Notes: generated from the letters alone by a model not told the origin. A stretch of DNA of 64,000 nt from an uncultured Alphaproteobacteria bacterium (GCA_944390355.1 CALXPT010000004.1:1077-65076), one strand, 5' to 3'. Counted from the first letter of the stretch, positions 18,997 through 64,000 are shown. A program made the numbers and translations.

Positions 18997-19005
18997 TCGT
19001 CTTCC

Positions 19006-24960: not shown

Positions 24961-24963
24961 CTT

Positions 24964-29987: not shown

Positions 29988-30024
29988 ATTCTTTCCCCTT
30001 GTTTTTATTTCATTCGATTTGGAA

Positions 30025-30375
30025 TTACAAATTACCGAATGATGTTCCCAACTTATCCGTTGCAGCACTTGAACCGGTTGCATATTCTACAATTGCACTT
30101 GCAGCGGCCAAAATTGCCAAACCGGTTGCCAGAGCTGCCAGCCACTTAAAGTCAACTTTCTTGAAAATTGCAGCCCATGCCAAACCGACCAAACCGAAGC
30201 CGCCTAAAATATACACAATCGTCTTAACCGATCTAAACACATTACCGACTTTGGTGGCTGCCGTATCCATCACCGTATCACCACTTGCCGCAAAAGCATT
30301 TCCCGATATTAAACTCAAAAATGCAAATATCAGCGTCGACAATGTCCATACATTATTTTTTAAGAATTGCATCAT
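30025..30375 (-). CDS. virB2: VirB2/TrbC-type T-pilin paralog 1
   Basis: I moved the start to the ATG at 30375 (AGGAG RBS). Leader ending GNAFA|A, two hydrophobic helices (TIVYILGGFGLVGLAWAAIF, LAALATGLAILAAASAIV). It is the first gene of the operon. Confidence 0.75.
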   Translation of the reverse strand: MMQFLKNNVWTLSTLIFAFLSLISGNAFAASGDTVMDTAATKVGNVFRSVKTIVYILGGFGLVGLAWAAIFKKVDFKWLAALATGLAILAAASAIVEYATGSSAATDKLGTSFGNL

Positions 30376-32582: not shown

Positions 32583-32678
32583 GGTTGTATTGGTTATAAG
32601 TTGCGTCTCGAGCTTGATTAATTGTTTTCAACATGTATTATAGGTATTAAGAACATGAGAATTTATTGCTTAAGGAAT

Positions 32679-34908: not shown

Positions 34909-34928
34909 TTTTCGTAAGGATATTTACC

Positions 34929-37650: not shown

Positions 37651-37664
37651 CCGGAGTAAAAACC

Positions 37665-39356: not shown

Positions 39357-39379
39357 AATAGAAAAGAAAGAGGTTAATT

Positions 39380-40498
39380 ATGGCAGAAAATAGAAAATCC
39401 ACTTCTCTTGACAGGGCTATGAAAAGGCTTGGTACAATTGAGGTTTATTATGCAAAAATTATTTGCCGTACGTCCAATAAGACGCGTTTGAAGCTGTATC
39501 GTAAATTGGCATCTTTACTCAGAAACAGATTTTCATTAATGAATGCTTTGGATTTGTTGCACAATTCTGCAAGTAACAGAGGGAAAAATCCAGGAGAGCC
39601 ATTGGCTATTGCCATTGCTTCTTGGGGCAAAGCTTTGCAAAACGGTTTGCCTTTTTCTGAAGCATTAAAAGGGTGGGCTCCTGACCGTGAAAGATTAATG
39701 CTTTCGGTTGGTGATGTTTCCGATATGGAAAGTGCTTTGATGAATTTGATTCGCGTTTCTGAGGGCTCTACCAAAATGATTCGTCCAATTGTCGGTGCTA
39801 TTACCTATCCATCGTTTCTATTTATGATGTCAGTTTTGATTATTTATGCTATTGGTGTTTATATGGTGCCTCCTATGCTTGAGGCAGCTCCAAATGTTAT
39901 TTGGCGAGGAACTGCGGCAACTTTGGTTGATATGTCAGCTTGGATTAGAGATAATTGGCTTTTGGCCTTTTCGGTGTTGCCGGTTGTTGGTATTATTATT
40001 TATCTTACTCTTGGTATTTGGACGGGACGGTTACGGGCTTTGTTTGATAGTATTCCGCCTTGGTCTTTGTATAAAATTTTTACCGGTATCAGTTGGCTCT
40101 TGGCTCTTTCGGCGTTGGTTAAAAGCGGAACTCCCGTCTCTACCGCAATGCGTGCTTTGAGACGCGATTCGACACATTATCTTCAAGAGAGAATCGATAA
40201 GACTTTGCTCTTTATTAATAACGGTGATAACCTTGGAAAAGCACTGTCGAAAACCGGATTAGAGTTTCCTGACAAAGAAATCATCAGCGATTTGGAAATT
40301 TATTCCGAATTAGATAATTTTGAAGAAGCTCTGGAAAATTTAGCAAACGAATGGCTGGATGAAAGTGTATACTTAATTGAAAATAAAGCTGCTATCTTAA
40401 ATATGGTGGCTATTTTGACTGTTGCCGGTATTATTGCATGGGCCGTATTCGGTGTATTCGAAATGCAAGACCAAATTACCAGCTCAATGGGAATTTAA
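39380..40498 (+). CDS. pilR: GspF-family polytopic platform protein (PilR in R64 nomenclature)
   Basis: 372 aa with two T2SSF-like halves and three hydrophobic segments. It directly follows the ATPase. Confidence 0.85.
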   Translation: MAENRKSTSLDRAMKRLGTIEVYYAKIICRTSNKTRLKLYRKLASLLRNRFSLMNALDLLHNSASNRGKNPGEPLAIAIASWGKALQNGLPFSEALKGWAPDRERLMLSVGDVSDMESALMNLIRVSEGSTKMIRPIVGAITYPSFLFMMSVLIIYAIGVYMVPPMLEAAPNVIWRGTAATLVDMSAWIRDNWLLAFSVLPVVGIIIYLTLGIWTGRLRALFDSIPPWSLYKIFTGISWLLALSALVKSGTPVSTAMRALRRDSTHYLQERIDKTLLFINNGDNLGKALSKTGLEFPDKEIISDLEIYSELDNFEEALENLANEWLDESVYLIENKAAILNMVAILTVAGIIAWAVFGVFEMQDQITSSMGI

Positions 40499-40502
40499 GC
40501 TT

Positions 40503-41093
40503 ATGAAATTTCCTTTTTTCAAAAAGAAGACTCCATTATCTCGCTTTCAAGTTCTGTGGAAGCGGCAGAAGGCTTTATGTGTCTTGCTTTTTTTGATTGT
40601 TATCATCGGAGTTATTTATTTGCTCCCTCATTCTGAAAAGAAAGCTGATTTGGCGGCTCAACAAGTTATGAAAGTTGCTGAGAATATTCGGAAGTTTTAT
40701 CAAACAAAACCTAATTATTGGGGATTGCAAACTAATTATGCATTGCGAAATGGTTTGTTTCAAGGTTTACGAATCCAAAATAATGTTGCTTTTCACTCTT
40801 TGGGTGGAAAGGTTTATGTCGGACAAGGTGTTAACGGTGACGTGGTTATGCCTGGGGAAAACGGCTTTGACGTGATTTATCCTGATATTAATCGGATTCA
40901 ATGTATTGCTCTTCTGGCTCATAAATTTAGCGATGAACAAAATTTGGGGTTGCAACATATTGCGGTTTTTGATGAAAAAGGTATATTAATTGCTGAATTT
41001 GGGTGGAGTGGTTTGAATAGGCTGCCAATCCATGAAAATATGGCGGAAAATATATGCATGAATAATAATTTTATTGTTTGGAGTTTTGAATAA
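40503..41093 (+). CDS. Pilin-like protein lacking a canonical prepilin cleavage motif
   Basis: I moved the start to the ATG at 40503. Basic N-terminus plus TM (ALCVLLFLIVIIGVIYLL) and no G|xxxxE motif. The globular part parallels the two pilins downstream (IRKFY..., DVIYPDINRIQCIALL..., terminal IVWSFE versus ITWEYR). Confidence 0.5.
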   Translation: MKFPFFKKKTPLSRFQVLWKRQKALCVLLFLIVIIGVIYLLPHSEKKADLAAQQVMKVAENIRKFYQTKPNYWGLQTNYALRNGLFQGLRIQNNVAFHSLGGKVYVGQGVNGDVVMPGENGFDVIYPDINRIQCIALLAHKFSDEQNLGLQHIAVFDEKGILIAEFGWSGLNRLPIHENMAENICMNNNFIVWSFE

Positions 41094-41311
41094 ATAATGA
41101 TATTTTTTTTTAATGTTTTTGAAAAAATTAATTCCCTTTTTGATGTATATGGATATTTGATTAAGTTATTATTTACTTTTGTTGTTTATTCTATAACTAA
41201 GGATATAGTCATGGAAATATGTCTAAAGACAGGCTTGTAAAAGTACTAAAATTGCGATAAAGTTATGCTATGAGGATATTTATGAAAAATTATTCTAATG
41301 GGAGAAAGAAG

Positions 41312-41872
41312 ATGAAGAAATTCGTTGAATCGGAACAGTCCGGTCGTTCAATGGTCGAAATGCTCGGCGTGCTTGCAATTATCGGTGTCTTGTCTGTCGG
41401 TGGTATTTCCGGTTATTCTAAGGCTATGGCTAAATATAAAATCAACCAATGTTTGGATCAAATTTCTACTTTGATTGTTAATATTCGTAGTGTGTTTGTT
41501 AATCAGACTTCTTTTGCCGATGCGACTACTGCCAATATTATTGCACTTGGTATTCCGACTGCCGATATGTTAAATGCTGACGGAACTGCCATGGTAAACC
41601 CTTTTAACGGAGCTATTACAATTACCCCAGGAACTGGAAGTACTTCATTTAAGGTAACTTATGCTGGTTTTGATAAAAATACTTGTCAAAGTATTGCTTT
41701 GGCTGACTGGGGTGCTGCGGCTTCTTCCGGTTTGATTTCATTACAAATAAATAATAGTACCGCACATACTTGGGGCGGTACTGATGCTGCTTTGCCGTTA
41801 TCTATTGCAAAAGCGGCTACGGAATGTGCTAATGATACAAATACTAACTCTATTACTTGGGAATACAGATAA
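41312..41872 (+). CDS. pilS: Type IV prepilin, copy 1
   Basis: I moved the start to the ATG at 41312 (GGAG RBS). Class III signal MKKFVESEQSG|RSMVEMLGVLAIIGVLSVGG with Glu at +5. C-terminal Cys pair (NTCQSIA ... TECAND). Confidence 0.85.
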   Translation: MKKFVESEQSGRSMVEMLGVLAIIGVLSVGGISGYSKAMAKYKINQCLDQISTLIVNIRSVFVNQTSFADATTANIIALGIPTADMLNADGTAMVNPFNGAITITPGTGSTSFKVTYAGFDKNTCQSIALADWGAAASSGLISLQINNSTAHTWGGTDAALPLSIAKAATECANDTNTNSITWEYR

Positions 41873-41896
41873 AATACCTGATTTCTCTTTCGTAAA

Positions 41897-41927
41897 GGCG
41901 TTTGGAATACCAAACGTCCTTTTTTTA
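41897..41927 (+). terminator. Intrinsic terminator after pilin 1
   Basis: ggcgtttgg-aata-ccaaacgtcc stem-loop followed by T7. Confidence 0.7.
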
Positions 41928-42014
41928 TAAAAAAATTTATTCGTTAAACATTTTGTTAATATATATACGTTATAAATGGTGCTATAGGTTATTTTAAATT
42001 TAGGTGGTGAAATA

Positions 42015-42587
42015 ATGTTAGAAGCTAATAAGGTTAAATTTTCGGAACAATCCGGTCGTTCTATGGTGGAAATGCTTGGCGTGCTTGCAATTATCGGCGT
42101 TTTGTCCGTCGGTGGTATTTCCGGTTATTCTAAGGCTATGGCTAAATATAAAATCAACCAATGTTTGGATCAGATTTCTACTTTGATTGTTAATATTCGT
42201 AGTGTGTTTGTCAATCAAACTTCTTTTGCTGATGCTACTACGGCCAATATTATTGCTCTTGGTATTCCAACCGGTGATATGCTTAATGCTGCCGGAACTG
42301 CCATGGTAAACCCTTTTAACGGAGCTATTACAATTACCCCAGGAACTGGAAATGCTTCATTTAAGGTAACTTATGCTGGTTTTGATAAAAATACTTGTCA
42401 AAGTATTGCTTTGGCCGACTGGGGGGCTGCTGCTTCTTCCGGCTTGATTTCATTACAAATTAACAATAAGACTGCTCATACTTGGGGTGGTAAAGATAAT
42501 GCTTCTTTGCCATTATCCATCGCTAGTGCTGCGTCTGAGTGTGATCAAGAAACTAATGCTAATTCCATTACTTGGGAATACAGATAG
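42015..42587 (+). CDS. pilS: Type IV prepilin, copy 2 (tandem paralog)
   Basis: MLEANKVKFSEQSG|RSMVEMLGV... The mature sequence is near-identical to copy 1, except for clustered C-terminal differences. Confidence 0.85.
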   Translation: MLEANKVKFSEQSGRSMVEMLGVLAIIGVLSVGGISGYSKAMAKYKINQCLDQISTLIVNIRSVFVNQTSFADATTANIIALGIPTGDMLNAAGTAMVNPFNGAITITPGTGNASFKVTYAGFDKNTCQSIALADWGAAASSGLISLQINNKTAHTWGGKDNASLPLSIASAASECDQETNANSITWEYR

Positions 42588-42612
42588 TTTTTCTCCTTTG
42601 CCAATACCTAGG

Positions 42613-42638
42613 CCGCTTGGAAACAAGCGGTTTTTTTT
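42613..42638 (+). terminator. Intrinsic terminator after pilin 2
   Basis: ccgcttg-gaaa-caagcgg stem-loop followed by T8. Confidence 0.75.
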
Positions 42639-42724
42639 GTGATGAAACGCCTTTTCAATATTTTATTAATACATCTGTGCTAAAGTTATACTTAGGTTTA
42701 TTTGTTTACGTTAGGTGATTACAA

Positions 42725-43690
42725 ATGGTTAAAATTAATGATGTTAAATTCTCGGATATTTATGTTACTCCAGACAGAAAAGCTTTTATTCCCGATGGAA
42801 AAACACGGAATGGTTTGGCTATCTTAGATGCTGAAGATTTTGATGAATTTTACAAACAGCTTGAAGATGCTTGGGATGGCGATAACCCTAGCTATTCGCT
42901 CTTGTATGAGGGCGTGTTTTATCGTATTGAACGCACCTTGAGCATTTATGGACCGCAATACTGCGGTCGTAAGATGCCTAAGCAAGTGCCGCCGCTTTCT
43001 TCTCTTGGATTTTTGCCTCAACTGGTTACTTATTTGAAGTCTCTCTCAAATGCATCCGGTTTAATTCTTTGGGCCGGTCCTACAGGACAAGGAAAAACGA
43101 CTTCTTTATCCGCTTTGTTGAAAGAATATTTGCAAACCGAAGGTGGGTTTGCCTATACGATTGAAGACCCTTGCGAAATGCCTCTTGACGGCGTGTATCA
43201 TGCCAGCAAAGGCGGGCTTGGTCTTTGCAAGCAAAATATTCCGCCTGAGGGCGACTGGGGGGCTGGTTTGAAGTCTGCCTTGCGTTCTAAACCGAGATAT
43301 ATTTTGGTTGGTGAGATTCGTACCCCTGAAACGGCTAGTGAGGCCTTGCGTGCCGCTACTTCCGGACACTTGGTGCTTTCATCCATCCACGGAAATAACG
43401 TTACCGATGCCATTACTTCTGTCGTGAAATATGCTTCTTCCACCTCTATGTCCGAAGAATTGGCTTACGATTTGTTTTCGCGCGGTATGCTTGTGGTTTT
43501 GCACCAAACTTTGGTCGGCGTCGGCGCGGCCAAGCATCCGGAAATTACTTATTTGCTCGCGAATCCTGACACAACCAAAGGTGATCAGGTCAGAGGTATT
43601 ATTAAAACCGGAAAACTCAATCTTGCAACAACCATTGAACTGCAAAAAACGCGTATGGAAAAAGGTATTGAGCTTTTCCCCGATATCTAA
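42725..43690 (+). CDS. PilT/PilU-like (T2SSE-family) hexameric ATPase, short form
   Basis: 321 aa. Walker A WAGPTGQGKTTSL, YTIEDPCE, VGEIRTPETA and the His-box GHLVLSSIHGNN. It lacks the N-terminal domains and zinc cysteines of the assembly ATPase. Confidence 0.8.
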   Translation: MVKINDVKFSDIYVTPDRKAFIPDGKTRNGLAILDAEDFDEFYKQLEDAWDGDNPSYSLLYEGVFYRIERTLSIYGPQYCGRKMPKQVPPLSSLGFLPQLVTYLKSLSNASGLILWAGPTGQGKTTSLSALLKEYLQTEGGFAYTIEDPCEMPLDGVYHASKGGLGLCKQNIPPEGDWGAGLKSALRSKPRYILVGEIRTPETASEALRAATSGHLVLSSIHGNNVTDAITSVVKYASSTSMSEELAYDLFSRGMLVVLHQTLVGVGAAKHPEITYLLANPDTTKGDQVRGIIKTGKLNLATTIELQKTRMEKGIELFPDI

Positions 43691-54478: not shown

Positions 54479-55219
54479 CTAAAAAGTAATCATTTTAGGC
54501 ATATAAAATTGACTTAGAAATTGTTCCAACCCAGCTCTATTACCATAATAAGTCTCATTCATATCTTCTCTTTTACATGACCTATACATACGCGGTATAG
54601 CCACATAAACATTTCCATCTGGATGTTCTTCAACAACAAACGGGTCATAATAAGGAGCAGTAAAATATCCATACAAATGTGTATTATTATTCAAGGCAGT
54701 ACAAATCAGTTGTCCTGCCCGAAATGTATCATACACTTGACTATTAACAAACTCTAAAGTCATTCTTTTAACCTCTCGGAGAGACATAGCTTTACATTTT
54801 CCATTTTCTTTTGCATAAACAAAATATCCCCCATTCTCTGTTACTAATGAAAAACTATAACAACTAGAACCATTGTAAAGATCTCCCACTTGACATCCGT
54901 TGCAGGCTTGGCTATACCCGCCAGTTCCTGACCCAGAGCCAGTCCCTGAACCGGAACCGGAACCCGAGTTATTCTCCAATTTAGTAATTCGGTTAAGTAT
55001 ATTGGTTATACTTGAGTTAATAGAATTTATTTTTGTCGTGTTATTAGGCCCTGTGCAGTTCCAAGCGTTTCCGAACGGGCATTTAATACCGCCGTCACAG
55101 GAAGAACTCGAAGTATAACCCAAGCTTGAACAACTCGGGGTTTGGATACACGCTGCCTCAGCCACACCACTCATCGTAAAAGCCACCAAAATTGTTGAAT
55201 ATAATAAAAACTTTCTCAT
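54479..55219 (-). CDS. Secreted Cys-rich protein with a (GS/GT)n linker
   Basis: I moved the start to the ATG at 55219 (AGGAG RBS). Signal peptide ...MSGVAEA|A. Cys-knot-like N-module CIQTPSCSSLGYTSSSSCDGGIKCPFGNAWNC, linker NSGSGSGSGTGSGSGTGG, and a ~140-aa C-domain. Confidence 0.65.
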   Translation of the reverse strand: MRKFLLYSTILVAFTMSGVAEAACIQTPSCSSLGYTSSSSCDGGIKCPFGNAWNCTGPNNTTKINSINSSITNILNRITKLENNSGSGSGSGTGSGSGTGGYSQACNGCQVGDLYNGSSCYSFSLVTENGGYFVYAKENGKCKAMSLREVKRMTLEFVNSQVYDTFRAGQLICTALNNNTHLYGYFTAPYYDPFVVEEHPDGNVYVAIPRMYRSCKREDMNETYYGNRAGLEQFLSQFYMPKMITF

Positions 55220-55323
55220 TTTCTTTCTCCTGTAGGCGGGGCCTACTGCCATCAATTTTGCATTGTGGCCAGACCGCCGCTTTGTTAATAATTATGGTTG
55301 TTTCCCTCTCCCTTGGCCTTGAA

Positions 55324-56202
55324 CTATTGTTCAAAAGCACAATAGTCGCACCAGTCGGTGCAACCAGACTTACAGCCGGTTACAATGTATAAATTCGAGC
55401 ATTCTTCAAACGTGCAAACCGTGCACGGAGGGCATTCGCTCTCCGTACCTAAGTTCGGGCATTTTTTGCATTCCGAACACAAGGTTGTATTGCCGCTTTG
55501 ACAAGCGGTTGCGCCGTCCACACAGCCCATTTCCCCGCAATCAAGATAGCCGGTGCAGTCTTTCTCTTTGATTTTGTATTTTTCCTTGATTTTGAAGCCA
55601 CCTTCATCACATTCTTCGCAGGGTTCACCGTCTGCTTCATAACCGTCGGGAATTGAACCGAGTGTGTATTTGTATTCCGCCGGACACGTCGGGGTACAGC
55701 AGTCTTTGTATAACCCATTGCCGCAGACCGTACCGACACCTTTTAACGGTGCTTCACAAGTTACGTAATTACTCGGACAATCCGGAATACATTCGGCAAA
55801 ATATTTATTATTCAGCGGGCAATATTTGTTGCCCTTATAGCCGCTCGGACACGAGGTTTTATTATACCCCATTCGGATACAGCTTTCGGCATCTCCTCCC
55901 CCTGGGGGTATAACTTCCGGTGTGCCGCCTTCCAAATCCGTGCCGACAAAGTCCGCTCCGCCGCAATCTTCCGTATCCGTTATCCAGCAAACTTGAGCAA
56001 CTTTAATCTCCGGCCGCCCCCTAAAACTCTCGGGAGACAAATGTCGAGCTATGAGGTGTGAAGTATGCGATGTGTGTAATTTAGCATAGCTCGGAACGGG
56101 AGGTGCTTTTAGATTAAAATTAATTGATGCCTGAACTTGATTATCCAAACAAGCCAAGCTTAATGCTGTAGCACACAGCAAAAGGCAACCCTTTTTCATC
56201 AT
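55324..56202 (-). CDS. Secreted, extremely Cys-rich protein
   Basis: Signal peptide LLLCATALSLA. It has dozens of Cys, including a module CIRMGYNKTSCPSGYKGNKYCPLNNKYFAEC related to the neighbouring gene. GAGGTG RBS. Confidence 0.65.
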   Translation of the reverse strand: MMKKGCLLLCATALSLACLDNQVQASINFNLKAPPVPSYAKLHTSHTSHLIARHLSPESFRGRPEIKVAQVCWITDTEDCGGADFVGTDLEGGTPEVIPPGGGDAESCIRMGYNKTSCPSGYKGNKYCPLNNKYFAECIPDCPSNYVTCEAPLKGVGTVCGNGLYKDCCTPTCPAEYKYTLGSIPDGYEADGEPCEECDEGGFKIKEKYKIKEKDCTGYLDCGEMGCVDGATACQSGNTTLCSECKKCPNLGTESECPPCTVCTFEECSNLYIVTGCKSGCTDWCDYCAFEQ

Positions 56203-56351
56203 AATACACCTCGTAAAAAGTTCTAATTACATTTGTCTCCACGACTCGTATTATACCACAAAAGAAAATCCCTTTCAATAGAAATTTTCAAGGCTGGACA
56301 AGGGTTTGGGCGAACTCTTTTGCATAAAAAATTGGAATTGATTTTTTCTTT

Positions 56352-56391
56352 TATAAAAAAATAGCCTGCTTTTTTTTCAAACAGGCTATTC
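56352..56391 (-). terminator. Intrinsic terminator downstream of the 56409..56786 lipoprotein gene
   Basis: Minus strand reads aatagcctg-(loop)-caggctatt followed by a T-run. Confidence 0.65.
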
Positions 56392-56408
56392 TCTCTTATG
56401 TTCTCTTT

Positions 56409-56786
56409 TTATCTCGTCAACAGTTCCGGACTGCCTTGATTCAACTGAGGTATTTGTGCTTCCGGAATATCCGAATAAGGAACATAGTCTGATGGTGTAT
56501 TACTATATTTTGGGGAATTGTTTTGTTGTTGCTGTTGTCTGTAATTCTGCTTATAGATATACGGAATTTCTTGTTCCTTGCCTTCAATATTAATCTCGGG
56601 ATTTACAAAACCCATGTTCCCCTTTTCAACAAAATAAAAATCACGACGAATCATTGCCTTATCTTTAATCGATAACTCATTCCACTCCTTTTCCGTCATC
56701 CCATACGGATAATTTTGCACCGGCTCACTGTTATATGCGCAGGCCGCCGTTAATCCTATTAAGCATGTGGCTATAATTCTTTTCAT
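56409..56786 (-). CDS. Small lipoprotein, Gln-rich C-terminus
   Basis: I moved the start to the ATG at 56786 (GGGGAG RBS). Lipobox GLTAAC|A. Confidence 0.6.
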   Translation of the reverse strand: MKRIIATCLIGLTAACAYNSEPVQNYPYGMTEKEWNELSIKDKAMIRRDFYFVEKGNMGFVNPEINIEGKEQEIPYIYKQNYRQQQQQNNSPKYSNTPSDYVPYSDIPEAQIPQLNQGSPELLTR

Positions 56787-56879
56787 GATAACTCTCCCCC
56801 ATATCTTTACTTCTAGAGAGGAGTATATCACAAATTGCTTAACAGCAAAATACTTATTTTTATTTTTTACTCAGATGTT

Positions 56880-58025: not shown

Positions 58026-58109
58026 GGCTATTCTTCCTTACTTTAGTCGGTTGCCTTTGATATAATCTATTCCTCAAAAATTTCTACTCGTCTTTATTTT
58101 TTTATCAAA

Positions 58110-58208
58110 ATTATATAAAATTAACTTGCTTTTTTATTATTTAAATTATAACAAAAAAGTAGACGTCGGCGTAGCTCATCAGGATAGAGCAACAGTTTCC
58201 TAAACTGT
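58110..58208 (+). repeat. Left arm of an inverted duplication (tRNA-Arg promoter plus tRNA positions 1-43)
   Basis: My hand alignment to the reverse complement of 60487..60586 gives roughly 80% identity. It includes the ttaacttgctttttatt promoter block, D-arm and anticodon arm. Confidence 0.8.
58165..58208 (+). pseudogene. Truncated tRNA-Arg(CCT): 5' half only (acceptor 5' strand, D-arm, anticodon arm)
   Basis: gtcggcg-ta-gctc-atcaggat-agagc-a-acagt-ttcctaa-actgt. Similarity to a tRNA then stops (tgctcgttatttttt), and there is no T-arm or acceptor 3' strand. Confidence 0.8.
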
Positions 58209-58363
58209 TGCTCGTTATTTTTTAATATTTCAGCTTGCCTTTTTATCTTATTGTAATATACTGTTTTACATAGAAATTTAATAATGCTTCTTCATCGCTT
58301 GCTTTTCTTGATTTTCTCAAAATAGATAAAAAAGTAGGCACTGTGTAGGCACGGAATAGACAC

Positions 58364-59527
58364 ATGGATAAGAAATTCAAATTCACAAATGCAAATATTA
58401 AAAACTTACCAGCTCCGACAAAAAGGACTTTTGTTTATGATACAATAGAGGTTGGTTTGTCGCTTCAAATAACCCCAAACGGAGCGAAGAGCTTTTACTA
58501 CCGAGGAGTTGTTTTAGGAAAACAAATACGCGTTAAGCTCGGAGAGCCTTCCTATATGAGTGTTGACGATGCCCGACAAGCCGCTCGTAAGGCCAAAATC
58601 AATATGAAAGAAGGTATCAACCCTATTGAGGAACGAAAAAAGATAACGGGCGAATCCTCTCTTGAACAATTATATACTCGTTTTATGGATGAAAAAGAAC
58701 AACATATCCGTCCGATAACAATGGAATATTATAAGGATTTGTGGAAACGTTATCTATCTACACTTGCCAATAAGAAAATATCCCAAATAACACCTGACGA
58801 ACTTAAGATACTTCATAAAAGATTGACATTGAACAATGGTAAGCGTTGTGCAAATCAAACAATCGTTCTTCTGCGAACCATTTATAACCATTTCATCAAA
58901 CAAAACATATATCAGGGATTTAATCCGGGTAATGCCGTGCAGCTTAATAAGCAAATCGCAAGAACAAGGCATCTAAGCGGAAATGAATTAGAATCGTTTA
59001 GAGATGCTATCAATGAAACTGAGGATTCTATACCAAAATTTGCAATTATGATGCTTTGGTTTACAGGAGCAAGAAGACGTAATGTCTTTTCAATGAAATG
59101 GGAAGACATTAAACTTGAAGAAAAGCTTTGGACGATTCCCGAAACAAAAACCCAAAATGACGCTAATGTTGTTTTAGTAAATGCAGCAATAGATATTCTC
59201 AATCAATTAAAAGATATGAGATACAATGAATATGTGTTCTTCTCGACAACATCCAAAAGTGGACATATTGGCGGAGTTCGAAAGACGTGGGAAGGAATCT
59301 TAAAGAGAGCAAAAATAACCAATTTTCACCTGCATGATTTAAGACATACCTTTGCGACATCATTATTAGCCAATGGGGCTGATGCTTTTATGGTCAAAAA
59401 AGCCCTCACCCACAAATCATTACAGAGCACGCAAATCTATGTAAATCTGGAAGTTGATGATTTACGAGAAAAACTAAATGAAACCGTTAATAAAATGATA
59501 GGAAAGAAAGATGAGCAAGCCCTATAA
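58364..59527 (+). CDS. int: Tyrosine recombinase, P4-like integrase with a DUF4102-type arm-binding N-domain
   Basis: N-terminus FTNANIKNLPAPTKRTFVYDTIEVGLSLQITPNGAKSFYYR...LGEPSYMSVDDARQAA. The catalytic region has GARRRNV, HLHDLRHTFATSLL and STQIYVN (R-H-R-Y set). Confidence 0.9.
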   Translation: MDKKFKFTNANIKNLPAPTKRTFVYDTIEVGLSLQITPNGAKSFYYRGVVLGKQIRVKLGEPSYMSVDDARQAARKAKINMKEGINPIEERKKITGESSLEQLYTRFMDEKEQHIRPITMEYYKDLWKRYLSTLANKKISQITPDELKILHKRLTLNNGKRCANQTIVLLRTIYNHFIKQNIYQGFNPGNAVQLNKQIARTRHLSGNELESFRDAINETEDSIPKFAIMMLWFTGARRRNVFSMKWEDIKLEEKLWTIPETKTQNDANVVLVNAAIDILNQLKDMRYNEYVFFSTTSKSGHIGGVRKTWEGILKRAKITNFHLHDLRHTFATSLLANGADAFMVKKALTHKSLQSTQIYVNLEVDDLREKLNETVNKMIGKKDEQAL

Positions 59528-60452
59528 CCCAACAAAACATTTGAAACTAAACAAATTTAAGCAAGAAGGTTATGCTTACTTTGAAAACATAGATTTTTCT
59601 GCTTCTGATAATAAAGATATATTAGCGACTATGCTTTTAGATTTTCCAAGGATTGTTTTCCAAAAATGTATTTTCAAATCTCTTATAGCAACCAAACAGA
59701 TTTTTAACGCTACTATATCTTTTGATGAATGTAAGTTTGCGGGTGAAGTTGACTTTAGCGAATCCATATTTAATAAAGTTGTATCTTTTAAGAACTCTTC
59801 CTTCCATGGCAAAACTTTGTTTATAAACACTGTATTTAAAAGCACTTTGGAGTTCTTTAATAATGTAATCAAGCCCAATATAAAAGGCGAAGTCAGCTTC
59901 AAAGTAGATAAAGCCATTGGAGAAAGTGATGTTTTCAGCGGTCTTCAATTCAACAATGTTAAGTTTGGAACTGAGACATCTTTCTTTGGTAGGGACTTTG
60001 GTCTTGTTGGCTTTCTTAAAAATACAGAGTTTGGGGATTTGTTTTGGATGACAAAATCTTCATTCGGAGAGAAGTTTGAAATGTCAAACCTTAACTTCAC
60101 AGGAGCAAAAAGAACTGAGTTTCTAAAATGCTTGGAAATATTTAAGAATTCGCTCAAACGCTCTTCTTTTGACTTATATGCTGATGAAGTAAACAAATAC
60201 GAAGAGCTTATGAGAAGTAAGGTTTCACAGCCCGTCATAAATATTCATAATATGCCGATTCCTGAAATACCTGTCAAAGAAGGTGATTACAATCTATATA
60301 CGACTGAAGAAGCGGCCACGATTCTCCATGTAAAACAAAATACTTTGGAAAGATGGCGTTGTGAAAGGAAAGGCCCCAAAGCAACCAAAATAGGCCGTAA
60401 AGTTTTTTATAAGAAATGTGATTTAGATGAATATATAAACAAATATAAATAA
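59511..60452 (+). CDS. Fusion protein: Phe-periodic beta-solenoid (pentapeptide-like) N-domain plus a C-terminal excisionase/AlpA-type HTH
   Basis: It overlaps the int stop. Phe recurs every 5-6 residues over about 170 aa (ISFDECKFAGEVDFSESIFNKVVSFKNSSFHGKTLFINTVFKSTLEF...). The C-terminus LYTTEEAATILHVKQNTLERWRCERKGPKATKIGRKVFYKKCDLDEYI matches the Xis-family HTH pattern. It ends 1 nt before the tRNA 3' end. Confidence 0.7.
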   Translation: MSKPYNPTKHLKLNKFKQEGYAYFENIDFSASDNKDILATMLLDFPRIVFQKCIFKSLIATKQIFNATISFDECKFAGEVDFSESIFNKVVSFKNSSFHGKTLFINTVFKSTLEFFNNVIKPNIKGEVSFKVDKAIGESDVFSGLQFNNVKFGTETSFFGRDFGLVGFLKNTEFGDLFWMTKSSFGEKFEMSNLNFTGAKRTEFLKCLEIFKNSLKRSSFDLYADEVNKYEELMRSKVSQPVINIHNMPIPEIPVKEGDYNLYTTEEAATILHVKQNTLERWRCERKGPKATKIGRKVFYKKCDLDEYINKYK

Positions 60453-60453
60453 A

Positions 60454-60530
60454 TGGCGTCAGCGGCGGGACTTGAACCCACTACCCCTGGTTTAGGAAAC
60501 CAGTGCTCTATCCGGATGAGCTACGCTGAC
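60454..60530 (-). tRNA. tRNA-Arg (anticodon CCT), CCA encoded
   Basis: Minus strand: gtcagcg-ta-gctc-atccggat-agagc-a-ctggt-ttCCTaa-accag-gggta-gtggg-ttcaagt-cccgc-cgctgac-g-cca. All four stems pair. Confidence 0.9.
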
Positions 60531-60586
60531 TACCTAGCCTTTGATTATAATTAAAAAAAATAAAAAGCAAGTTAAAATTATATATT
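60487..60586 (-). repeat. Right arm of the inverted duplication (promoter plus 5' 43 nt of the intact tRNA-Arg)
   Basis: See the left arm at 58110..58208. Confidence 0.8.
60544..60570 (-). promoter_or_regulatory. Candidate sigma-70 promoter of tRNA-Arg
   Basis: Minus strand reads TTGCTT-(15 nt)-TATAAT, ending 13 nt before tRNA position 1. The same block is conserved in the left repeat arm, where the -10 is TATAAC. Confidence 0.4.
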
Positions 60587-60932
60587 TTTAAGCCATCTTT
60601 TGCTCTTTGTTTTAATTAGTCAAAGATTAAACTGCGGCATATTCCATATATAGGAATAAGAAAAAACTATCGTTATTATCTCCATCTGGGGATTACATAA
60701 CAAATAGGATAAAGAAAGTAATTATTTCTACAATTAAACAGATATTCTTATTGAAAAATCAACCTTTTTACTTTAACGTATTCTAAAAACGAAGAAACAG
60801 ATAAAAGCAATAATATTGTATTAAGAGCTAATAATATCAATTTAGCAACGAAAAAATTAGATTTATCTGATTTAAAATATTTAAAGGAAGATTTTGTTAT
60901 AGATAGTAACCCTTGATGAAAAAAGAGAGACA

Positions 60933-61313
60933 TTGTCAAGCTTTGATAAAACAAAATCTCAAAAAATTGAAAAGCATATAAACGAGAAGTTATTAGAACA
61001 CAAAAAAGTTGAAAATACTATTTCTCAAACGGTTGTTTTTTATTGGGACACAGCACGATTTAATAAATCAAAACCATTTAATTATAAAGGGATATGCAGA
61101 AAAATATCACCAAATCCATATAATGTCATTTTTGATGACGAAAAGGTTAAAAATTATATGACAAGAGAGAGTCATTTAGATAAGCCGTGGCAGGATTTGT
61201 GCTATGTTGTAGATATTGAATTTACGGAAGGAAAATCAAAACCTGTTTATAAAATTACCAAAGTTTATGAAGACCAAACATTCTTTCAAGAAACTGAAGA
61301 TAATGAGAACTAA
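60933..61313 (+). CDS. 126-aa hypothetical protein
   Basis: The ORF has a TTG start only and no convincing RBS. Its stop overlaps the start of the DUF4160-like gene, which suggests coupling. Confidence 0.35.
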   Translation: MSSFDKTKSQKIEKHINEKLLEHKKVENTISQTVVFYWDTARFNKSKPFNYKGICRKISPNPYNVIFDDEKVKNYMTRESHLDKPWQDLCYVVDIEFTEGKSKPVYKITKVYEDQTFFQETEDNEN

Positions 61314-61668
61314 TTTTATAGAAATTCCTGAGTTATCAGAAAAACTAACTGAGCTTTTTAATAGACCGTATCATTTTTATAAAAATATAGTTTATTTCTG
61401 TGAAGAGAGAACCGTAGGTGGGTATAAAAATGTGCAATTTATTGTTAATACCAATGACCATCCACCGCTTCATTTTCATATAGAAACAACTAATCCTGAT
61501 GGAGCATATAAAGTCTTTCTAGATGAAAAGTATTCTATTGTAAGATTTGATATAATATATGGAAAACGTTTGCCAAAAAGAATCATAAAAACCATAAACT
61601 ATTGGTATGAAGAACAAGATGGGAAAAGAAAAGTTTTGGAAGAATTACATAGAGTAGGAATGATATGA
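61303..61668 (+). CDS. DUF4160-like small protein
   Basis: I moved the start to the ATG at 61303. NTNDHPPLHFHIETTNPDGAYKVFLDE resembles the DUF4160 signature (N-D-H-x-P-P-H-F-H). Confidence 0.5.
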   Translation: MRTNFIEIPELSEKLTELFNRPYHFYKNIVYFCEERTVGGYKNVQFIVNTNDHPPLHFHIETTNPDGAYKVFLDEKYSIVRFDIIYGKRLPKRIIKTINYWYEEQDGKRKVLEELHRVGMI

Positions 61669-61698
61669 ATATTTTTAACATTATTGCATAAAGGCCAC

Positions 61699-62418
61699 TC
61701 ATTGCAGTGGCCTTTGTTGTGATTCTAGCTTTATCTGTGTGAGTTCGGCAAGAAGTCTGTCGGCTCGTGATTTTTCAAATTCGTATTGTTTTTGGTAGTA
61801 TTCGGCGTCTCGTTGAAAGTTCAGGGCTTCTTGCAGGATTATGCGTTTATCAACGTTGCTTAAATCTACGCAAGAAATGGTTAAGTATGGTTTGTCGGTT
61901 AGTTCTAACATTCTGCGGCCGTGGGTATCCATTGATTTAATAAGATACCCTTCACGGATACACTATCTAAAGCCATACAAGAAATAAAATCTTTTGAATC
62001 TCCAACTAATTTTGTTACAAATTGATTCATTCTTAAATAGTAGGTAAAAATTTCTTCATAAACACTTTTTAACACAAAATAATCACACTCATCAGATGAT
62101 TCTTTAGGAAAATCGAAATCAAAATAATCAAATATATTTATAGTTCCAATACTTACACATTCTATTGGTGTTTGATAACGATTCAAAGTATCTTCAATGT
62201 AGCAATCTATATTTCTCTATAAATTCATCATACCCATTCTCTGAAAATCTTTTTAACTTCAATAGAGCATTTTCTGCTTTGCCATTTTCAACCATTTGCA
62301 GTCTCCTTTGCTTTGTTGTAACCATAAATAGTATATTCTTTTGTTTATGAAACGCAAATAATTTACTCAATAACATCACAACAAATAACGACGACACACA
62401 ATTATCTTTAAAAATCAA
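61699..62418 (-). pseudogene. Three consecutive small minus-strand ORFs in three different frames, possibly one decayed gene
   Basis: 62194..62418, 61905..62186 and 61699..61932 abut or overlap (7-nt gap, 28-nt overlap) with shifted frames. No homology recognised. Confidence 0.25.
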
Positions 62419-62593
62419 CTAATTATCTTTTAATTAAAGATATTTTTCTATTTTAAATGACAAACATTCGCGGCCAAAAGAAATATCAAAACAAACAAAT
62501 CTTTACATTTTTAAGTTTTCGCAATGATTTTGATGAATATTATGTAAAAAGGAAATCTTTTAAAAACTTTTTTATAAATTTCTAAAAAACTTA

Positions 62594-62622
62594 TTGAAAT
62601 ATAGAAGTTTTTTATATATATT
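62594..62622 (+). promoter_or_regulatory. Candidate sigma-70 promoter for the AAA ATPase gene
   Basis: TTGAAA (62594..62599), a 17-nt spacer, then TATATT (62617..62622). GAGGGGG RBS before the ATG at 62643. Confidence 0.45.
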
Positions 62623-62642
62623 GATAATGAGGGGGATTTGCT

Positions 62643-63866
62643 ATGATAGATAGACCATTATATTTAAATAAGTTAATGTCTTGGAAAGATAAAGATATTA
62701 TCAAGGTCATTACAGGTATTAGACGATGCGGAAAATCTAGAATATTAGATAGCTTTGCCTTGAAATTAAAAGAACAGGGAATCACTGAAGAACAAATTAT
62801 TCACCTGAATTTTGAAGAAATGGGTGATGAGCAAATTTCCGATGCAAAAACTTTGCACGATATGATTGATAGCCGCCTAAAAGCAAATAAAGATAAAATG
62901 ACTTATATTATGCTTGATGAAGTGCAAAAAATACCTGAATGGGAAAAAGCTGTTGTATCTCTACGTTTGCGAAAGAATGCTGATTTATATTTAACCGGTT
63001 CAAACGCCTATATGCTTTCTTCAGAATTGGCTACTTTCTTATCAGGAAGATATGTAGAAATAAAAATGCTTCCTTTATCTTTTAAGGAATTTTTGACTTT
63101 TCATAAATTTCCTAATGATATGTCAATGGAACGCAAATTTGCCTTATATATTAAATTTGGCGGAATGCCATCGTTAAAAGATTTTGATTTTAGCGAAAGA
63201 CAGTCTTATGAAGTTCTTGATGGTATATATAATACAGTTTTGATAAAAGATGTAGCTTCTAGAGCTAAGAATACAAATACCCAAGTAATTGAAAAAATCA
63301 TCCATTTTCTAGCTGATAACATTGCCAACATAAGCAGCGTTAACAGTATTACGAACACATTATATAATGAAAAGAGTATCGAAAGTAAAAATAATGCTTA
63401 TGTAAATGATTGTATTGGCTTATTAGAAAAAGCTTTTATTTTTTATCCTGTCCAACGCTATGATGTTAAAGGAAAAGAACTTTTACGAAGTTTGGAAAAA
63501 TACTATATTGTTGATAATGGATTGCGGTATCGTATTTTAAACCGAGTTTCCGATAATGGTCGGATTCTGGAAAATATTGTTTATTTTGAGCTTTTAAGAC
63601 GTGGTTATACGGTTTTTATTGGTAAGTATGAAGATAAAGAAATAGACTTTATTGCAACCAAACAAGATGAAAAGCTATATATTCAAGTAAATGATAGAAT
63701 GGATGCCAACAAAACATTTAGTCGCGAATTAGGAGTTTTACAGCAGATTCGTGATAGTCATCCCAAAATGGTTTTAACGAATGATGAAATGTTGGTTGGC
63801 AGCACAGAAGATGGTATAAAGATAGTATCTTTGCTTGAATGGCTATTAAAGGATTATGAAGCATAA
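62643..63866 (+). CDS. AAA_14 / DUF4143-family ATPase
   Basis: 407 aa. Walker A ITGIRRCGKS, Walker B IMLDEVQKIPEW, and a C-terminal DUF4143-like nuclease-fold region (IDFIATKQDEKLYIQV). Confidence 0.75.
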   Translation: MIDRPLYLNKLMSWKDKDIIKVITGIRRCGKSRILDSFALKLKEQGITEEQIIHLNFEEMGDEQISDAKTLHDMIDSRLKANKDKMTYIMLDEVQKIPEWEKAVVSLRLRKNADLYLTGSNAYMLSSELATFLSGRYVEIKMLPLSFKEFLTFHKFPNDMSMERKFALYIKFGGMPSLKDFDFSERQSYEVLDGIYNTVLIKDVASRAKNTNTQVIEKIIHFLADNIANISSVNSITNTLYNEKSIESKNNAYVNDCIGLLEKAFIFYPVQRYDVKGKELLRSLEKYYIVDNGLRYRILNRVSDNGRILENIVYFELLRRGYTVFIGKYEDKEIDFIATKQDEKLYIQVNDRMDANKTFSRELGVLQQIRDSHPKMVLTNDEMLVGSTEDGIKIVSLLEWLLKDYEA

Positions 63867-64000
63867 CCCAATAAGAAAACACTATTCGTCTAATGTTTTA
63901 TTGATAAAAAAAGGAATAAACCTCTTTGCAGACCATCATAAAATCCTTGATTTTTAAGTATCATTGACTAATATAACTACATAATATTTGGAGTAGAGAT

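What the first reader, a model, noticed from the sequence alone, without database searches (positions are those of the whole stretch)
58110..60586. Inverted duplication of the tRNA-Arg(CCT) promoter plus 5' half brackets a 2.2-kb integrase/excisionase module
An intact tRNA-Arg(CCT) lies on the minus strand at 60454..60530, with a TTGCTT-N15-TATAAT promoter. About 2.3 kb to the left, on the plus strand, is a second copy of the promoter block and of tRNA positions 1-43. It stops exactly at the 3' side of the anticodon stem. The two arms are about 80% identical by eye. The anticodon stems differ by compensatory changes (acagt/actgt versus ctggt/accag), so the fragment descends from a once-functional, diverged tRNA gene rather than from a fresh local copy. 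Between the truncated end and the 3' end of the intact tRNA lie only a P4-type integrase and an Xis-like gene. The Xis-like gene ends 1 nt before the tRNA CCA. Canonical tRNA-targeting islands leave direct repeats of the tRNA 3' part. An inverted 5' half plus promoter is not what simple integration produces. One option is an element that disrupted a resident tRNA-Arg at the anticodon arm and brought a replacement copy. In that case the island would extend rightward to include 60.6-64 kb and beyond. Another is an inversion between two tRNA-associated elements. A third is a remnant of recombinase-mediated rearrangement.
Basis: seen in the sequence. Interest (0 to 1): 0.65.

Follow-up and report, generated by a model that had tools for sequence, protein, structure and literature searches.

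The report
Island splits tRNA-Arg, carries replacement copy
A 5.9-kb mobile island has cut the host's only tRNA-Arg(CCT) gene in two at the anticodon loop and brings its own complete copy of that tRNA, a way of integrating already described for some phages, so the "inverted duplication" is simply the dead host half facing the island's replacement gene.

Summary
Arms 58107-58208(+) and 60487-60589(-) are 80/102 identical and are the two best inverted repeats in the window. It is not a local duplication or an inversion.

The left arm is the promoter and 5' half of the resident tRNA-Arg(CCT). This gene was split in its anticodon stem-loop by a 5,918-bp integrative island. The orphan 3' half lies on the + strand about 112 nt past the window end. 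A 15-bp direct repeat, AGTTTCCTAAACTGT, marks attL and attR.

Contigs with a 100% identical flanking porin protein carry the precise empty site, with 0/320 mismatches to the prediction. 108 of the 119 genome stretches returned, each from a different assembly, carry the intact resident-type gene.

The island does not rebuild the tRNA. It carries a complete tRNA-Arg(CCT) with its own promoter, abutting a pentapeptide/HTH_17 gene and a P4-type integrase. Variable defence cargo and a conserved PDC-S01 ATPase gene follow.

The island module is 98-99% identical in hosts whose flanking M20 gene is only 70-74% identical, which indicates horizontal transfer.

The mechanism matches "tRNA-dependent lysogeny" (Guerrero-Bustamante & Hatfull 2024), here in a small non-phage island of gut Alphaproteobacteria.

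The parts
58107..58164 (+). Promoter-like block of the resident (now split) tRNA-Arg(CCT) gene: TTGCTT 58126-58131, 15-nt spacer, TATAAC 58147-58152.
   Evidence: Read. It is present unchanged in front of the intact tRNA in same-species empty sites L138 and L139. It is 45/58 identical to the island tRNA promoter. Promoter function is inferred.
58165..58208 (+). 5' half of the resident tRNA-Arg(CCT): acceptor 5' strand, D arm and the whole anticodon arm. It is truncated by the island and forms attL.
   Evidence: In empty sites the same 44 nt continue into GGGTAGTGGGTTCGAGTCCCGCCGCTGACGCCA. The acceptor 5' strand covaries with the orphan 3' half across hosts: GTCGGCG/CGCTGAC versus GTCCCCG/CGGGGAC.
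58194..58208 (+). attL copy of the 15-bp common core AGTTTCCTAAACTGT. The second copy (attR) lies outside the window at equivalent position 64112-64126.
   Evidence: One search finds exact cores at both island ends in L001, L002, L004, L008, L010, L012 and L014. L008 is the same contig as the window, with offset 48363 and 7 mismatches in 15.6 kb.
58187..58223 (+). Junction hairpin plus T-tract: GAGCAACAGT-TTCCTAA-ACTGTTGCTC followed by GTTATTTTTT. It is a perfect 10-bp inverted repeat around the anticodon loop that exists only in the integrated state. It is a likely pair of strong core-type Int sites and/or an intrinsic terminator that stops the resident tRNA promoter before int.
   Evidence: The terminator scan calls it. 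The RNA fold gives -17.2 kcal/mol, z = -3.5. An equivalent structure, GCAACAGT...ACTGTTGC plus a T run, is present in the 82%-identity lineage L151. Function is inferred.
58209..58363 (+). P' arm of attP (island left end). It holds an int promoter-like site, TTGCCT-16-TATACT at 58235-58262, and two arm-type repeats GTAGGCAC at 58335-58342 and 58346-58353.
   Evidence: AGGCAC(C) repeats recur in the other attP arm and, in 2 to 5 copies, upstream of int in relatives L150, L144 and L147. Binding is inferred.
58364..59527 (+). Tyrosine integrase of the P4 type (Arm-DNA-bind_3, SAM-like and Phage_integrase domains), 387 aa.
   Evidence: Pfam E-values are 3e-29 and 2.2e-13. The identical protein is indexed in 138 blocks of the assembly collection.
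59511..60452 (+). ORF313: N-terminal pentapeptide repeats fused to a C-terminal HTH_17 (excisionase/AlpA-type) domain. It overlaps the int stop by 17 nt. It is a candidate recombination directionality factor or regulator.
   Evidence: Pfam HTH_17 4.9e-12 and Pentapeptide_3 4.7e-10. TIGR01764 'excise' scores 22.8 bits, below the 28.8 cut-off. The protein is conserved beside every related integrase sampled, down to 46% Int identity.
60454..60530 (-). Island-borne complete tRNA-Arg(CCT), the replacement gene. Its anticodon stem is CTGGT/ACCAG.
   Evidence: ARAGORN. The sequence is identical in every copy of this island in different hosts, while the split resident gene varies. It is the only intact tRNA-Arg(CCT) matched in island-bearing MAGs.
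60531..60589 (-). Promoter-like block of the island tRNA (TTGCTT-N15-TATAAT).
   Evidence: It travels with the island. The closest chromosomal relatives are the resident tRNA promoters of L070 and L101, at 49 and 48 of 58.
60590..62642 (.). Variable cargo segment. Here it holds small ORFs, including a DUF4160 protein at 61216-61668. In other copies it holds type I, type II and other restriction-modification systems, Abi, SIR2, PIN, AAA_15 or ankyrin genes.
   Evidence: No PADLOC hit for the small ORFs of this copy.
62643..63866 (+). AAA_14/DUF4143 ATPase, equal to PADLOC defence candidate PDC-S01. It is the conserved last gene of the island.
   Evidence: Pfam. PADLOC PDC-S01 E = 3.7e-146. It is found at the right end of the island in L001/L010, L002/L008, L004, L012 and L014.
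63867..64000 (+). Start of the conserved P arm of attP (245 nt in all). The arm-type repeats, the attR core and the orphan 3' half of the resident tRNA (equivalent 64112-64159) fall just beyond the window end.
   Evidence: read from L008, which is the same contig.

Best explanation
The window holds a 5,918-bp integrative island, spanning window 58209 to equivalent position 64126. Its P4-type tyrosine integrase recombined a short attP core with the anticodon stem-loop of the host's tRNA-Arg(CCT) gene.

The shared core is only 15 bp, AGTTTCCTAAACTGT. It covers three base pairs of the 5' stem, the 7-nt anticodon loop (the probable strand-exchange region) and the 3' stem. Because the core is so short, the tRNA is not rebuilt. 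The promoter and 5' half stay at attL (58107-58208). The 3' half is displaced 5.9 kb to attR, just outside the window.

The island makes up for the loss with its own complete tRNA-Arg(CCT) gene and promoter (60454-60589, minus strand). This gene sits directly behind the int/pentapeptide-HTH_17 module and happens to face the dead 5' half. That arrangement produces the apparent inverted duplication.

Shown here: the split, the direct repeat, the exact empty site, the island boundaries, the constancy of the island tRNA across hosts, and horizontal spread.

Inferred:
- The island tRNA is needed because the host has no other tRNA-Arg(CCT).
- Strand exchange takes place in the anticodon loop.
- AGGCAC repeats are arm-type Int sites.
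- ORF313 is the directionality factor.
- The perfect inverted repeat plus T-tract created at attL terminates transcription from the orphaned tRNA promoter before int.
For: 1. The orphan 3' half lies on the + strand after the AAA_14 gene, preceded by an exact second copy of the 15-bp core, in L001, L002, L004, L008, L010, L012 and L014. L003, L005 and L006 reach only the right end and show the same attR junction.
2. The two halves covary. GTCGGCG pairs with CGCTGAC in the window host. GTCCCCG pairs with CGGGGAC in L012 and L014.
3. Same-species contigs with a 100% identical porin protein (L138, L139) equal the predicted empty site with 0 mismatches over 320 nt.
4. 108 of 119 genome-contig stretches, each from a different assembly, carry the intact resident-type gene. 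It is usually in the same SH3-M20-(porin)-tRNA context. 18 carry exactly the reconstructed window gene.
5. ARAGORN finds no tRNA at attL or attR. The attL sequence continues as TGCTCGTTATTTTTT.
6. The island tRNA is identical in all copies of this island. Only one tRNA-Arg(CCT) match per assembly was found, including the island-bearing MAGs.
7. The module 58209-60589 is 98.4-99.1% identical in hosts whose M20 gene is 70-74% identical. G+C drops from about 0.40 to 0.27-0.34 across the island.
8. The same int / pentapeptide-HTH / tRNA-Arg(CCT) design occurs in lineages with 82% (L151) and 66% (L027) Int identity. Both target the same core. L150 (64% Int identity) has the same design at the corresponding position of a CCGGT-stem tRNA-Arg(CCT). 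L027 and L150 are in the opposite orientation.
9. Domains and arm repeats fit a heterobivalent integrase.
10. The mechanism has an experimentally established precedent (PMC10865867).
Against: No excised circle or attP junction was found in viral or metagenome contigs. The available runs are assembled contigs that cannot show rare junctions, so current excision activity is unproven.

The need for the replacement tRNA is not shown. In E. coli the CCU isoacceptor gene (argW) can be deleted (own knowledge, not tested here).

The promoter spacers are 15 nt, outside the usual 16-18 range.

ORF313 is far larger than known excisionases, and its match to the NCBIfam 'excise' model is below the cut-off.

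RNA evidence is limited to low-depth metatranscriptome contigs over int, ORF313 and AAA_14, which could be DNA carry-over.
Confidence: 0.9

Rival explanations
1. The island tRNA is ordinary cargo, or a hitch-hiking captured host gene, and is not needed to compensate for the split gene. Loss of tRNA-Arg(CCT) would be tolerated because tRNA-Arg(UCU) can read AGG.
For: CCU-type tRNA-Arg is dispensable in some bacteria (own knowledge). Relatives with 46-51% Int identity sit next to a 3' fragment of a CAT-anticodon tRNA and show no replacement tRNA in the 9 kb read.
Against: A tRNA-Arg(CCT) is kept directly beside the int module in every lineage that targets this gene, at 100%, 82%, 66% and 64% Int identity. 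Only one intact gene per assembly was found. In L118 an inverted intact tRNA is retained next to a dead 5' half although int is gone.
Confidence: 0.15
2. Inversion or another recombinase-mediated rearrangement between two tRNA-associated elements produced the inverted arms.
For: The arms are inverted, and a tyrosine recombinase lies between them.
Against: An exact empty site with one + strand tRNA exists in the same species. A 15-bp direct repeat bounds a 5.9-kb insert whose two flanks join seamlessly. The right arm is internal to the mobile unit and identical in hosts where the left arm differs.
Confidence: 0.02
3. The minus-strand tRNA is the resident gene, and a canonical 2.3-kb int-xis mini-island is integrated at its 3' end. 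The left fragment is unrelated debris.
For: The int module abuts the 3' end of the intact tRNA, as in many canonical islands.
Against: Empty sites have no minus-strand tRNA at this locus. No 3'-end direct repeat of the minus-strand tRNA exists in the window. The minus-strand tRNA, its promoter and the cargo to its right travel together between species.
Confidence: 0.01
4. A recent local inverted duplication of the tRNA promoter and 5' half.
For: There is sequence similarity of 78% over 102 nt, including the promoter.
Against: There is 22% divergence. The left arm is chromosomal and host-specific, while the right arm is island-specific. The promoter block AACTTGCTTTTT...TATAAT is a shared feature of tRNA-Arg(CCT) genes across this clade. 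The island promoter is closer to those of L070 and L101 (48-49/58) than to the window's own (45/58).
Confidence: 0.01

Closest known systems
tRNA-dependent lysogeny of actinobacteriophages, e.g. Fionnbharth, LeBron and Gaia (Guerrero-Bustamante & Hatfull, mBio 2024, PMC10865867)
   Same: A tyrosine integrase with an arm-binding domain is used. attB lies inside a tRNA gene. The common core is only 8-17 bp (15 bp here), so no functional tRNA is rebuilt at the junction. [quoted passage not shown] Related integrases switch between tRNA targets and between rebuilding and non-rebuilding modes.
   Different: This element is not a phage. It is a 5.9-kb island (about 5.2 kb to more than 12 kb in other copies) with int, an HTH protein, a tRNA and defence cargo. 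It has no structural, replication or repressor genes, so 'lysogeny' does not apply and the transfer route is unknown. The host is a Gram-negative gut alphaproteobacterium. The requirement for the tRNA is untested here.
Lj965 prophage of Lactobacillus johnsonii, and phage-related sequences in Sinorhizobium meliloti that substitute a host tRNA gene (cited in PMC10865867; PMC11476347, PMC12429752)
   Same: Integration fails to rebuild the tRNA, and the element brings a cognate tRNA that resembles genes of other taxa.
   Different: These are prophages or prophage-like regions. No compact int / pentapeptide-HTH / tRNA module and no defence-island role was described in the passages read.
Canonical tDNA-integrating genomic islands with anticodon-centred attP (site 'A' of Williams 2002 / Islander, PMC4383910)
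   Same: A tyrosine integrase is used. The crossover is centred on the anticodon loop, with the symmetric stem as flanks. Direct repeats lie at both ends. The int gene sits at one end of the island.
   Different: Canonical islands carry the 3' (or 5') tDNA part in attP and regenerate the gene. Here attP has only the 15-bp core and both resident halves are dead. Islander's orientation and configuration filters would reject the pairing of the intact tRNA with the inverted fragment.
P4-family integrases (Arm-DNA-bind_3 / DUF4102 N-terminus, e.g. P4 Int, CP4-57 IntA)
   Same: The domain architecture is the same. Repeated arm-type motifs lie on both sides of the core.
   Different: Sequence relatedness to characterised members was not measured here. 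The best NCBIfam matches are generic Xer/integrase models far below their cut-offs.

Membership tests
tRNA-dependent integration ('tRNA-dependent lysogeny', PMC10865867) | A tyrosine integrase recombines attP with an attB that overlaps a host tRNA gene. | tested here: met
   The int domains are present. The split resident tRNA-Arg(CCT) has a 15-bp core at both junctions. Exact empty sites exist.
tRNA-dependent integration ('tRNA-dependent lysogeny', PMC10865867) | The common core is short (about 8-17 bp), so no functional tRNA is rebuilt at attL or attR. | tested here: met
   The core is 15 bp. attL continues as TGCTCGTTATTTTTT, and attR is preceded by GGTTTATAT. ARAGORN calls no tRNA at either junction.
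tRNA-dependent integration ('tRNA-dependent lysogeny', PMC10865867) | [quoted passage not shown] | tested here: met
   tRNA-Arg(CCT) lies at 60454-60530 inside the island in every copy.
tRNA-dependent integration ('tRNA-dependent lysogeny', PMC10865867) | The element tRNA is required for survival of integrants, because the host tRNA is single-copy or essential. | not testable with these tools
   Only indirect support is available. One tRNA-Arg(CCT) match per assembly was found among 119 assemblies. The tRNA is retained in all lineages.
tRNA-dependent integration ('tRNA-dependent lysogeny', PMC10865867) | The element is a temperate phage. | tested here: not met
   The 5.9-kb island encodes int, ORF313, a tRNA, five small ORFs and an AAA_14 ATPase. 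No phage structural, replication or repressor domains were found. Other copies carry restriction-modification and Abi cargo.
Canonical tDNA genomic island (Islander definition, PMC4383910) | An island-borne tDNA fragment regenerates the target. An intact tDNA lies at one end and a displaced fragment in the same orientation at the other. | tested here: not met
   Both resident halves are fragments. The only intact gene is internal to the island and inverted relative to them.
Canonical tDNA genomic island (Islander definition, PMC4383910) | A tyrosine integrase gene lies inside the island, which is bounded by direct repeats. | tested here: met
P4-type (heterobivalent) integrase | An N-terminal Arm-DNA-bind_3 domain plus a C-terminal catalytic domain, with arm-type repeats on both attP arms. 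| tested here: met
   Pfam PF13356 2.2e-13 and PF00589 3e-29, covering 3-168 of 172 profile positions. AGGCAC repeats lie in the P' arm (58335-58353) and the P arm (equivalent 64011-64030). Binding was not tested.
Excisionase / RDF of the HTH_17 (AlpA/Xis) family | A small (about 60-100 aa) winged-helix protein encoded next to int. | tested here: inconclusive
   The C-terminal 51 aa match HTH_17 at 4.9e-12. The protein is 313 aa with an N-terminal pentapeptide-repeat domain, and TIGR01764 'excise' scores below its cut-off. It is conserved beside int in all relatives.
Invertible segment, or transposon bounded by terminal inverted repeats | The inverted repeats are the recombination sites or ends of the mobile or invertible unit. 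| tested here: not met
   The left arm is chromosomal and stays in empty sites. The right arm is internal to the island. The mobile unit is bounded by 15-bp direct repeats.

The most novel reading that the evidence does not exclude
The island family drives turnover of the tRNA-Arg(CCT) gene in gut Alphaproteobacteria, and its tRNA is built to escape its own integrase.

In four lineages that target the ACAGT/ACTGT-stem gene, the island tRNA carries a CTGGT/ACCAG stem. This changes 4 of the 15 core positions, so the island has no internal attB. When int decays, the locus would be left with an inverted, target-less tRNA allele that can no longer be invaded. Candidates for this state are L118, and possibly L078 and L087.

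The junction hairpin plus T-tract at attL would be a built-in terminator that exists only in the integrated state. It would shield int from the strong orphaned tRNA promoter.
Probability: 0.2. Interest if true: 0.55.

Novelty: new member of a known kind. Interest (0 to 1): 0.38.

Why it matters
This finding shows that integration which breaks a tRNA gene and supplies a whole replacement is not confined to actinobacteriophages. A compact, horizontally spreading defence island of uncultured gut Alphaproteobacteria uses it too. The identical integrase is indexed in 138 blocks of the assembly collection, and the runs and assemblies that hold the island come from chicken, other bird, human and other animal gut samples.

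Such islands are invisible to finders that look for an intact tDNA plus a same-orientation fragment. A reader of raw sequence sees a puzzling inverted tRNA duplication. Recognising the pattern (two dead halves with a short direct repeat and one whole xenologous tRNA inside) gives exact island boundaries. It also exposes a hypervariable defence-gene slot.

The int/attP/tRNA module is small (about 2.4 kb plus a 245-nt arm). Its attB is known and conserved across the many species sampled here, which could make it useful as an integration tool for this uncultured clade.

Tried and rejected
1. Excised-circle search. The attP junction GGTTTATAYAGTTTCCTAAACTGTTGCTC gave 0 hits in viral contigs and in metagenome contigs. 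This says nothing either way, because rare circles are not assembled.

2. Read-level evidence for excision. All DNA runs that hold the locus are kept only as Logan contigs. The unitigs break at 58165-58208, where depth is about double. This fits the 5' half being shared with other genomes in the sample, but no clean attB or attP junction could be read.

4. RNA evidence. Metatranscriptome contigs cover parts of int, ORF313 and AAA_14 at depth 2-8 and do not cover the porin. This is too thin, and possibly DNA, so it cannot support or refute the terminator idea.

5. The 'self-immunity by stem recoding' idea was not adopted as the main explanation. In L150 the island tRNA has the same CCGGT stem as the orphan fragment beside its int. 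In L118 the intact tRNA differs from the core at a single position. Free-living CTGGT and CCGGT alleles also exist (L078, L087, L070, L101), so the stem difference may simply reflect the donor lineage.

6. The single donor of the island tRNA could not be named. L078 and L087 have the identical 77-nt tRNA but another promoter. L070 and L101 have the closest promoter but a tRNA that differs at several positions, one stem pair among them.

7. Williams 2002 (PMC100330) is not held in the library. The sublocation classes are cited through PMC4383910.


Full report

Yes. ARAGORN finds a single tRNA in the window, tRNA-Arg(CCT) at 60454-60530 on the minus strand.

The repeat finder lists 493 inverted pairs in the 64 kb.
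- 58107-58156 vs 60540-60589: the promoter block, 50 nt, 82% complementary.
- 58165-58205 vs 60490-60530: tRNA positions 1-41, 88% complementary.

Aligned end to end, 58107-58208 and the reverse complement of 60487-60589 share 80 of 102 positions. The local score is 58, against a mean of 9.4 and a maximum of 15 in 500 shuffles. The promoter part alone gives 45/58, above all 1000 shuffles.

The similarity ends at 58208, the last base of the anticodon stem. Among ORFs of at least 120 aa, only two lie between the arms:
- A 387-aa integrase with Arm-DNA-bind_3 and Phage_integrase domains.
- A 313-aa protein with pentapeptide repeats and a C-terminal HTH_17 domain.

The stop codon of the second ORF ends 1 nt before the tRNA 3' end.

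**2. What is it?**

G+C falls from about 0.40 to 0.27-0.34 at 58 kb and stays low to the end of the window. This pointed to an insert running rightward.

I looked up contigs that encode the identical integrase and the identical AAA_14 protein (62643-63866). This returned the window's own contig (L002/L008, offset 48363, 7 mismatches in 15.6 kb) and many others.

A search for the tRNA halves in these loci found the missing 3' half of the left-hand gene. It lies on the + strand, 245 nt after the AAA_14 stop, at window-equivalent 64112-64159, about 112 nt beyond the window end.

The two junctions read:
- attL: ...GAGCAAC-AGTTTCCTAAACTGT-TGCTCGTTATTTTTT...
- attR: ...GGTTTATAT-AGTTTCCTAAACTGT-GGGTAGTGGGTTCGAGTCCCGCCGCTGACGCCA

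A 15-bp direct repeat therefore bounds a 5,918-bp insert. Joining the flanks gives a perfect 77-nt tRNA-Arg(CCT).

**3. Three independent confirmations**

(a) The halves covary between hosts. The acceptor strand GTCGGCG pairs with CGCTGAC in the window host. GTCCCCG pairs with CGGGGAC in L012 and L014. The island-borne tRNA is identical everywhere.

(b) Contigs from other samples encode a 100% identical porin, the gene just left of the arm. They show UDP-glucose dehydrogenase, tRNA and porin with no island. L138 and L139 equal the predicted empty site at 320 of 320 positions.

(c) A scan of one genome per species for intact forms of the gene returned 119 stretches, all from different assemblies of uncultured gut Alphaproteobacteria. 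Of these, 108 have the resident-type anticodon stem ACAGT/ACTGT, mostly in the same SH3-M20-(porin)-tRNA context. Eighteen are identical to the reconstructed window gene. A permuted tmRNA in L010 also fits Alphaproteobacteria.

**4. The island**

Its parts, from left to right:
- The P' arm (58209-58363). It holds a promoter-like site in front of int and two GTAGGCAC repeats.
- int.
- ORF313.
- The complete tRNA-Arg(CCT) with its own promoter, on the minus strand.
- A variable cargo slot.
- The AAA_14/DUF4143 gene, which matches PADLOC defence candidate PDC-S01 at E = 3.7e-146.
- A conserved 245-nt P arm with two more AGGCAC repeats.

In other copies the cargo slot holds type I restriction-modification with Abi, SIR2 or PIN genes, DpnII-type restriction-modification, other restriction-modification systems, or AAA_15 and ankyrin genes. 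This includes different cargo at the same site in the same species.

The int-ORF313-tRNA module is 98.4-99.1% identical at the nucleotide level in hosts whose flanking M20 peptidase gene is only 70-74% identical. The island has therefore moved recently between species. The runs that hold it are chicken, bird and other gut metagenomes.

**5. Why the arms look like an inverted duplication**

The left arm is chromosomal and the right arm is part of the mobile unit. They resemble each other because both are tRNA-Arg(CCT) genes of this clade.

The AACTTGCTTTTT...TATAAT promoter block is common among resident genes. The closest chromosomal relatives of the island promoter are the genes in L070 and L101, at 48-49 of 58. 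The identical 77-nt tRNA occurs free-standing in L078 and L087. The island tRNA is thus a captured host-type gene, not a local copy.

The inverted orientation is incidental. In L027 (Int 66% identical) and L150 (64%), the int end of the island abuts the orphan 3' half, and the island tRNA points the same way as the split gene.

**6. Mechanism**

The core comprises three base pairs of the 5' anticodon stem, the 7-nt loop and the 3' stem. This is the anticodon-centred site used by many tDNA integrases (PMC4383910). I infer that strand exchange takes place in the loop.

At attL, the chromosomal GAGCAACAGT and the island's ACTGTTGCTC form a perfect 10-bp inverted repeat around the loop, followed by GTTATTTTTT. 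The terminator scan calls it. As RNA it folds to -17.2 kcal/mol, z = -3.5. The 82%-identity lineage L151 has the equivalent.

This structure may be two strong core-type Int sites, a terminator that stops the orphaned tRNA promoter before int, or both. None of these roles has been tested.

ORF313 is the constant partner of this integrase family down to 46% identity. It is the candidate directionality factor, but its size and pentapeptide domain are unlike known excisionases.

**7. Comparison with what is known**

The defining features are a tyrosine integrase, an attB inside a tRNA gene, a core too short to rebuild the gene, and an element-borne tRNA of the same anticodon. These are exactly those of tRNA-dependent lysogeny, shown experimentally for mycobacteriophages and found in several actinobacteriophage clusters with cores of 8-17 bp (PMC10865867).

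That paper also cites prophage Lj965. Two papers on Sinorhizobium meliloti report host tRNA genes substituted by genes brought by integrated phage-related sequences.

What differs here is the kind of element. It is a small island of 5.9 kb here (about 5.2 kb to more than 12 kb in other copies) with no phage genes. It is a defence-gene carrier in gut Alphaproteobacteria. I therefore file it as a new member of a known kind.

It fails the canonical-island definition, which requires a regenerated tDNA plus a same-orientation fragment. Islander-type filters would reject the intact-tRNA/inverted-fragment pair.

**8. What remains open**

- No circle junction was found, and the runs available are contigs only. 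Present-day excision is therefore unproven, although empty and differently filled sites in one species argue for ongoing turnover.
- Dependence on the island tRNA is supported only by the single-copy count and by its universal retention.
- The idea that the recoded anticodon stem protects the island from its own integrase is weakened by L150 and L118 and is kept only as the novel reading.
- The transfer route of an island without conjugation or phage genes is unknown.

Noticed in passing
window 17185-30083 (-) and 30660-43690 (+): Two divergent gene blocks meet near 30.3 kb, where the GC skew changes sign. On the minus strand is a type IV secretion set: a VirB4/TrbE-like ATPase at 26757-29189 and a TrbC/VirB2 pilin at 29601-30083. 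On the plus strand is a type IVb pilus set: TcpQ at 32622-33317 and PilS/bundlin-like pilins. This may be a conjugative element. Whether it could mobilise the island was not examined.
   Followed up: partly
window 41270-41872 and 42015-42587: Two tandem PilS/bundlin-like pilin paralogues share a 300-nt stretch at 93% identity (41330-41629 vs 42042-42341) and an identical 28-nt motif after each.
   Followed up: no
window 7738-15564 (-): Two very large repeat proteins (1463 and 1143 aa) are built of about 51-nt periodic repeats. The second matches beta-flower (Bflower_2, 4.6e-62), DUF3659 and RHS repeats.
   Followed up: partly
window 36400-36633: A perfect 117-nt tandem duplication (2 copies, 100% identical) lies inside ORF 36163-37650, which has no Pfam match.
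   Followed up: no
window 54479-56831 (-): Cysteine-rich secreted proteins without Pfam domains (258 and 292 aa) and a 140-aa ORF lie between the M20 peptidase and the porin. This segment is present in the window species but absent in many related genomes, where M20 lies directly beside the tRNA. The left flank of the tRNA is therefore also variable.
   Followed up: partly
L144-L149 (Int 46-51% identical to the window integrase): These relatives sit next to a 3' fragment of a CAT-anticodon tRNA (…CTCATAACCTGAAGGTCGTAGGTTCAAATCCTGCCCCCGCAACCA). The fragment is cut at the 5' edge of the anticodon loop. An AbiEii/DUF6088 pair lies between int and the pentapeptide-HTH gene. No replacement tRNA was found in the 9 kb read, so this lineage may rebuild its target or carry the tRNA farther away.
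   Followed up: partly
L118 (JAFUXF010000026.1), tRNA-oriented coordinates 1999-2075 and 2487-2530: An intact tRNA-Arg(CCT) with a CCAGT/ACTGG stem faces a dead 5' half about 410 nt away. The dead half ends in the island-type ACTGT. No integrase lies between them. It looks like a decayed relative of the window arrangement.
   Followed up: partly
L078, L087; L077, L100, L117, L043: In some species the only tRNA-Arg(CCT) lies convergent with the M20 gene, the opposite of the usual orientation. In L078 and L087 it is 77/77 identical to the island tRNA but has no int. These could be donors of the island gene or fossils of island-driven gene replacement.
   Followed up: partly
L009, L013, L014 versus L008: The rpsA-cmk-rsmE-response regulator block lies right of the island in the window species. 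In the species of L009, L013 and L014 it lies about 8 kb to the left of the tRNA, in the same orientation. The neighbourhood of this tRNA is therefore rearranged between species.
   Followed up: no
L135, 7568-8662: In one otherwise window-like copy of the island the integrase is called as 364 aa instead of 387 aa, and no longer overlaps ORF313. This suggests a truncating change near its 3' end.
   Followed up: no
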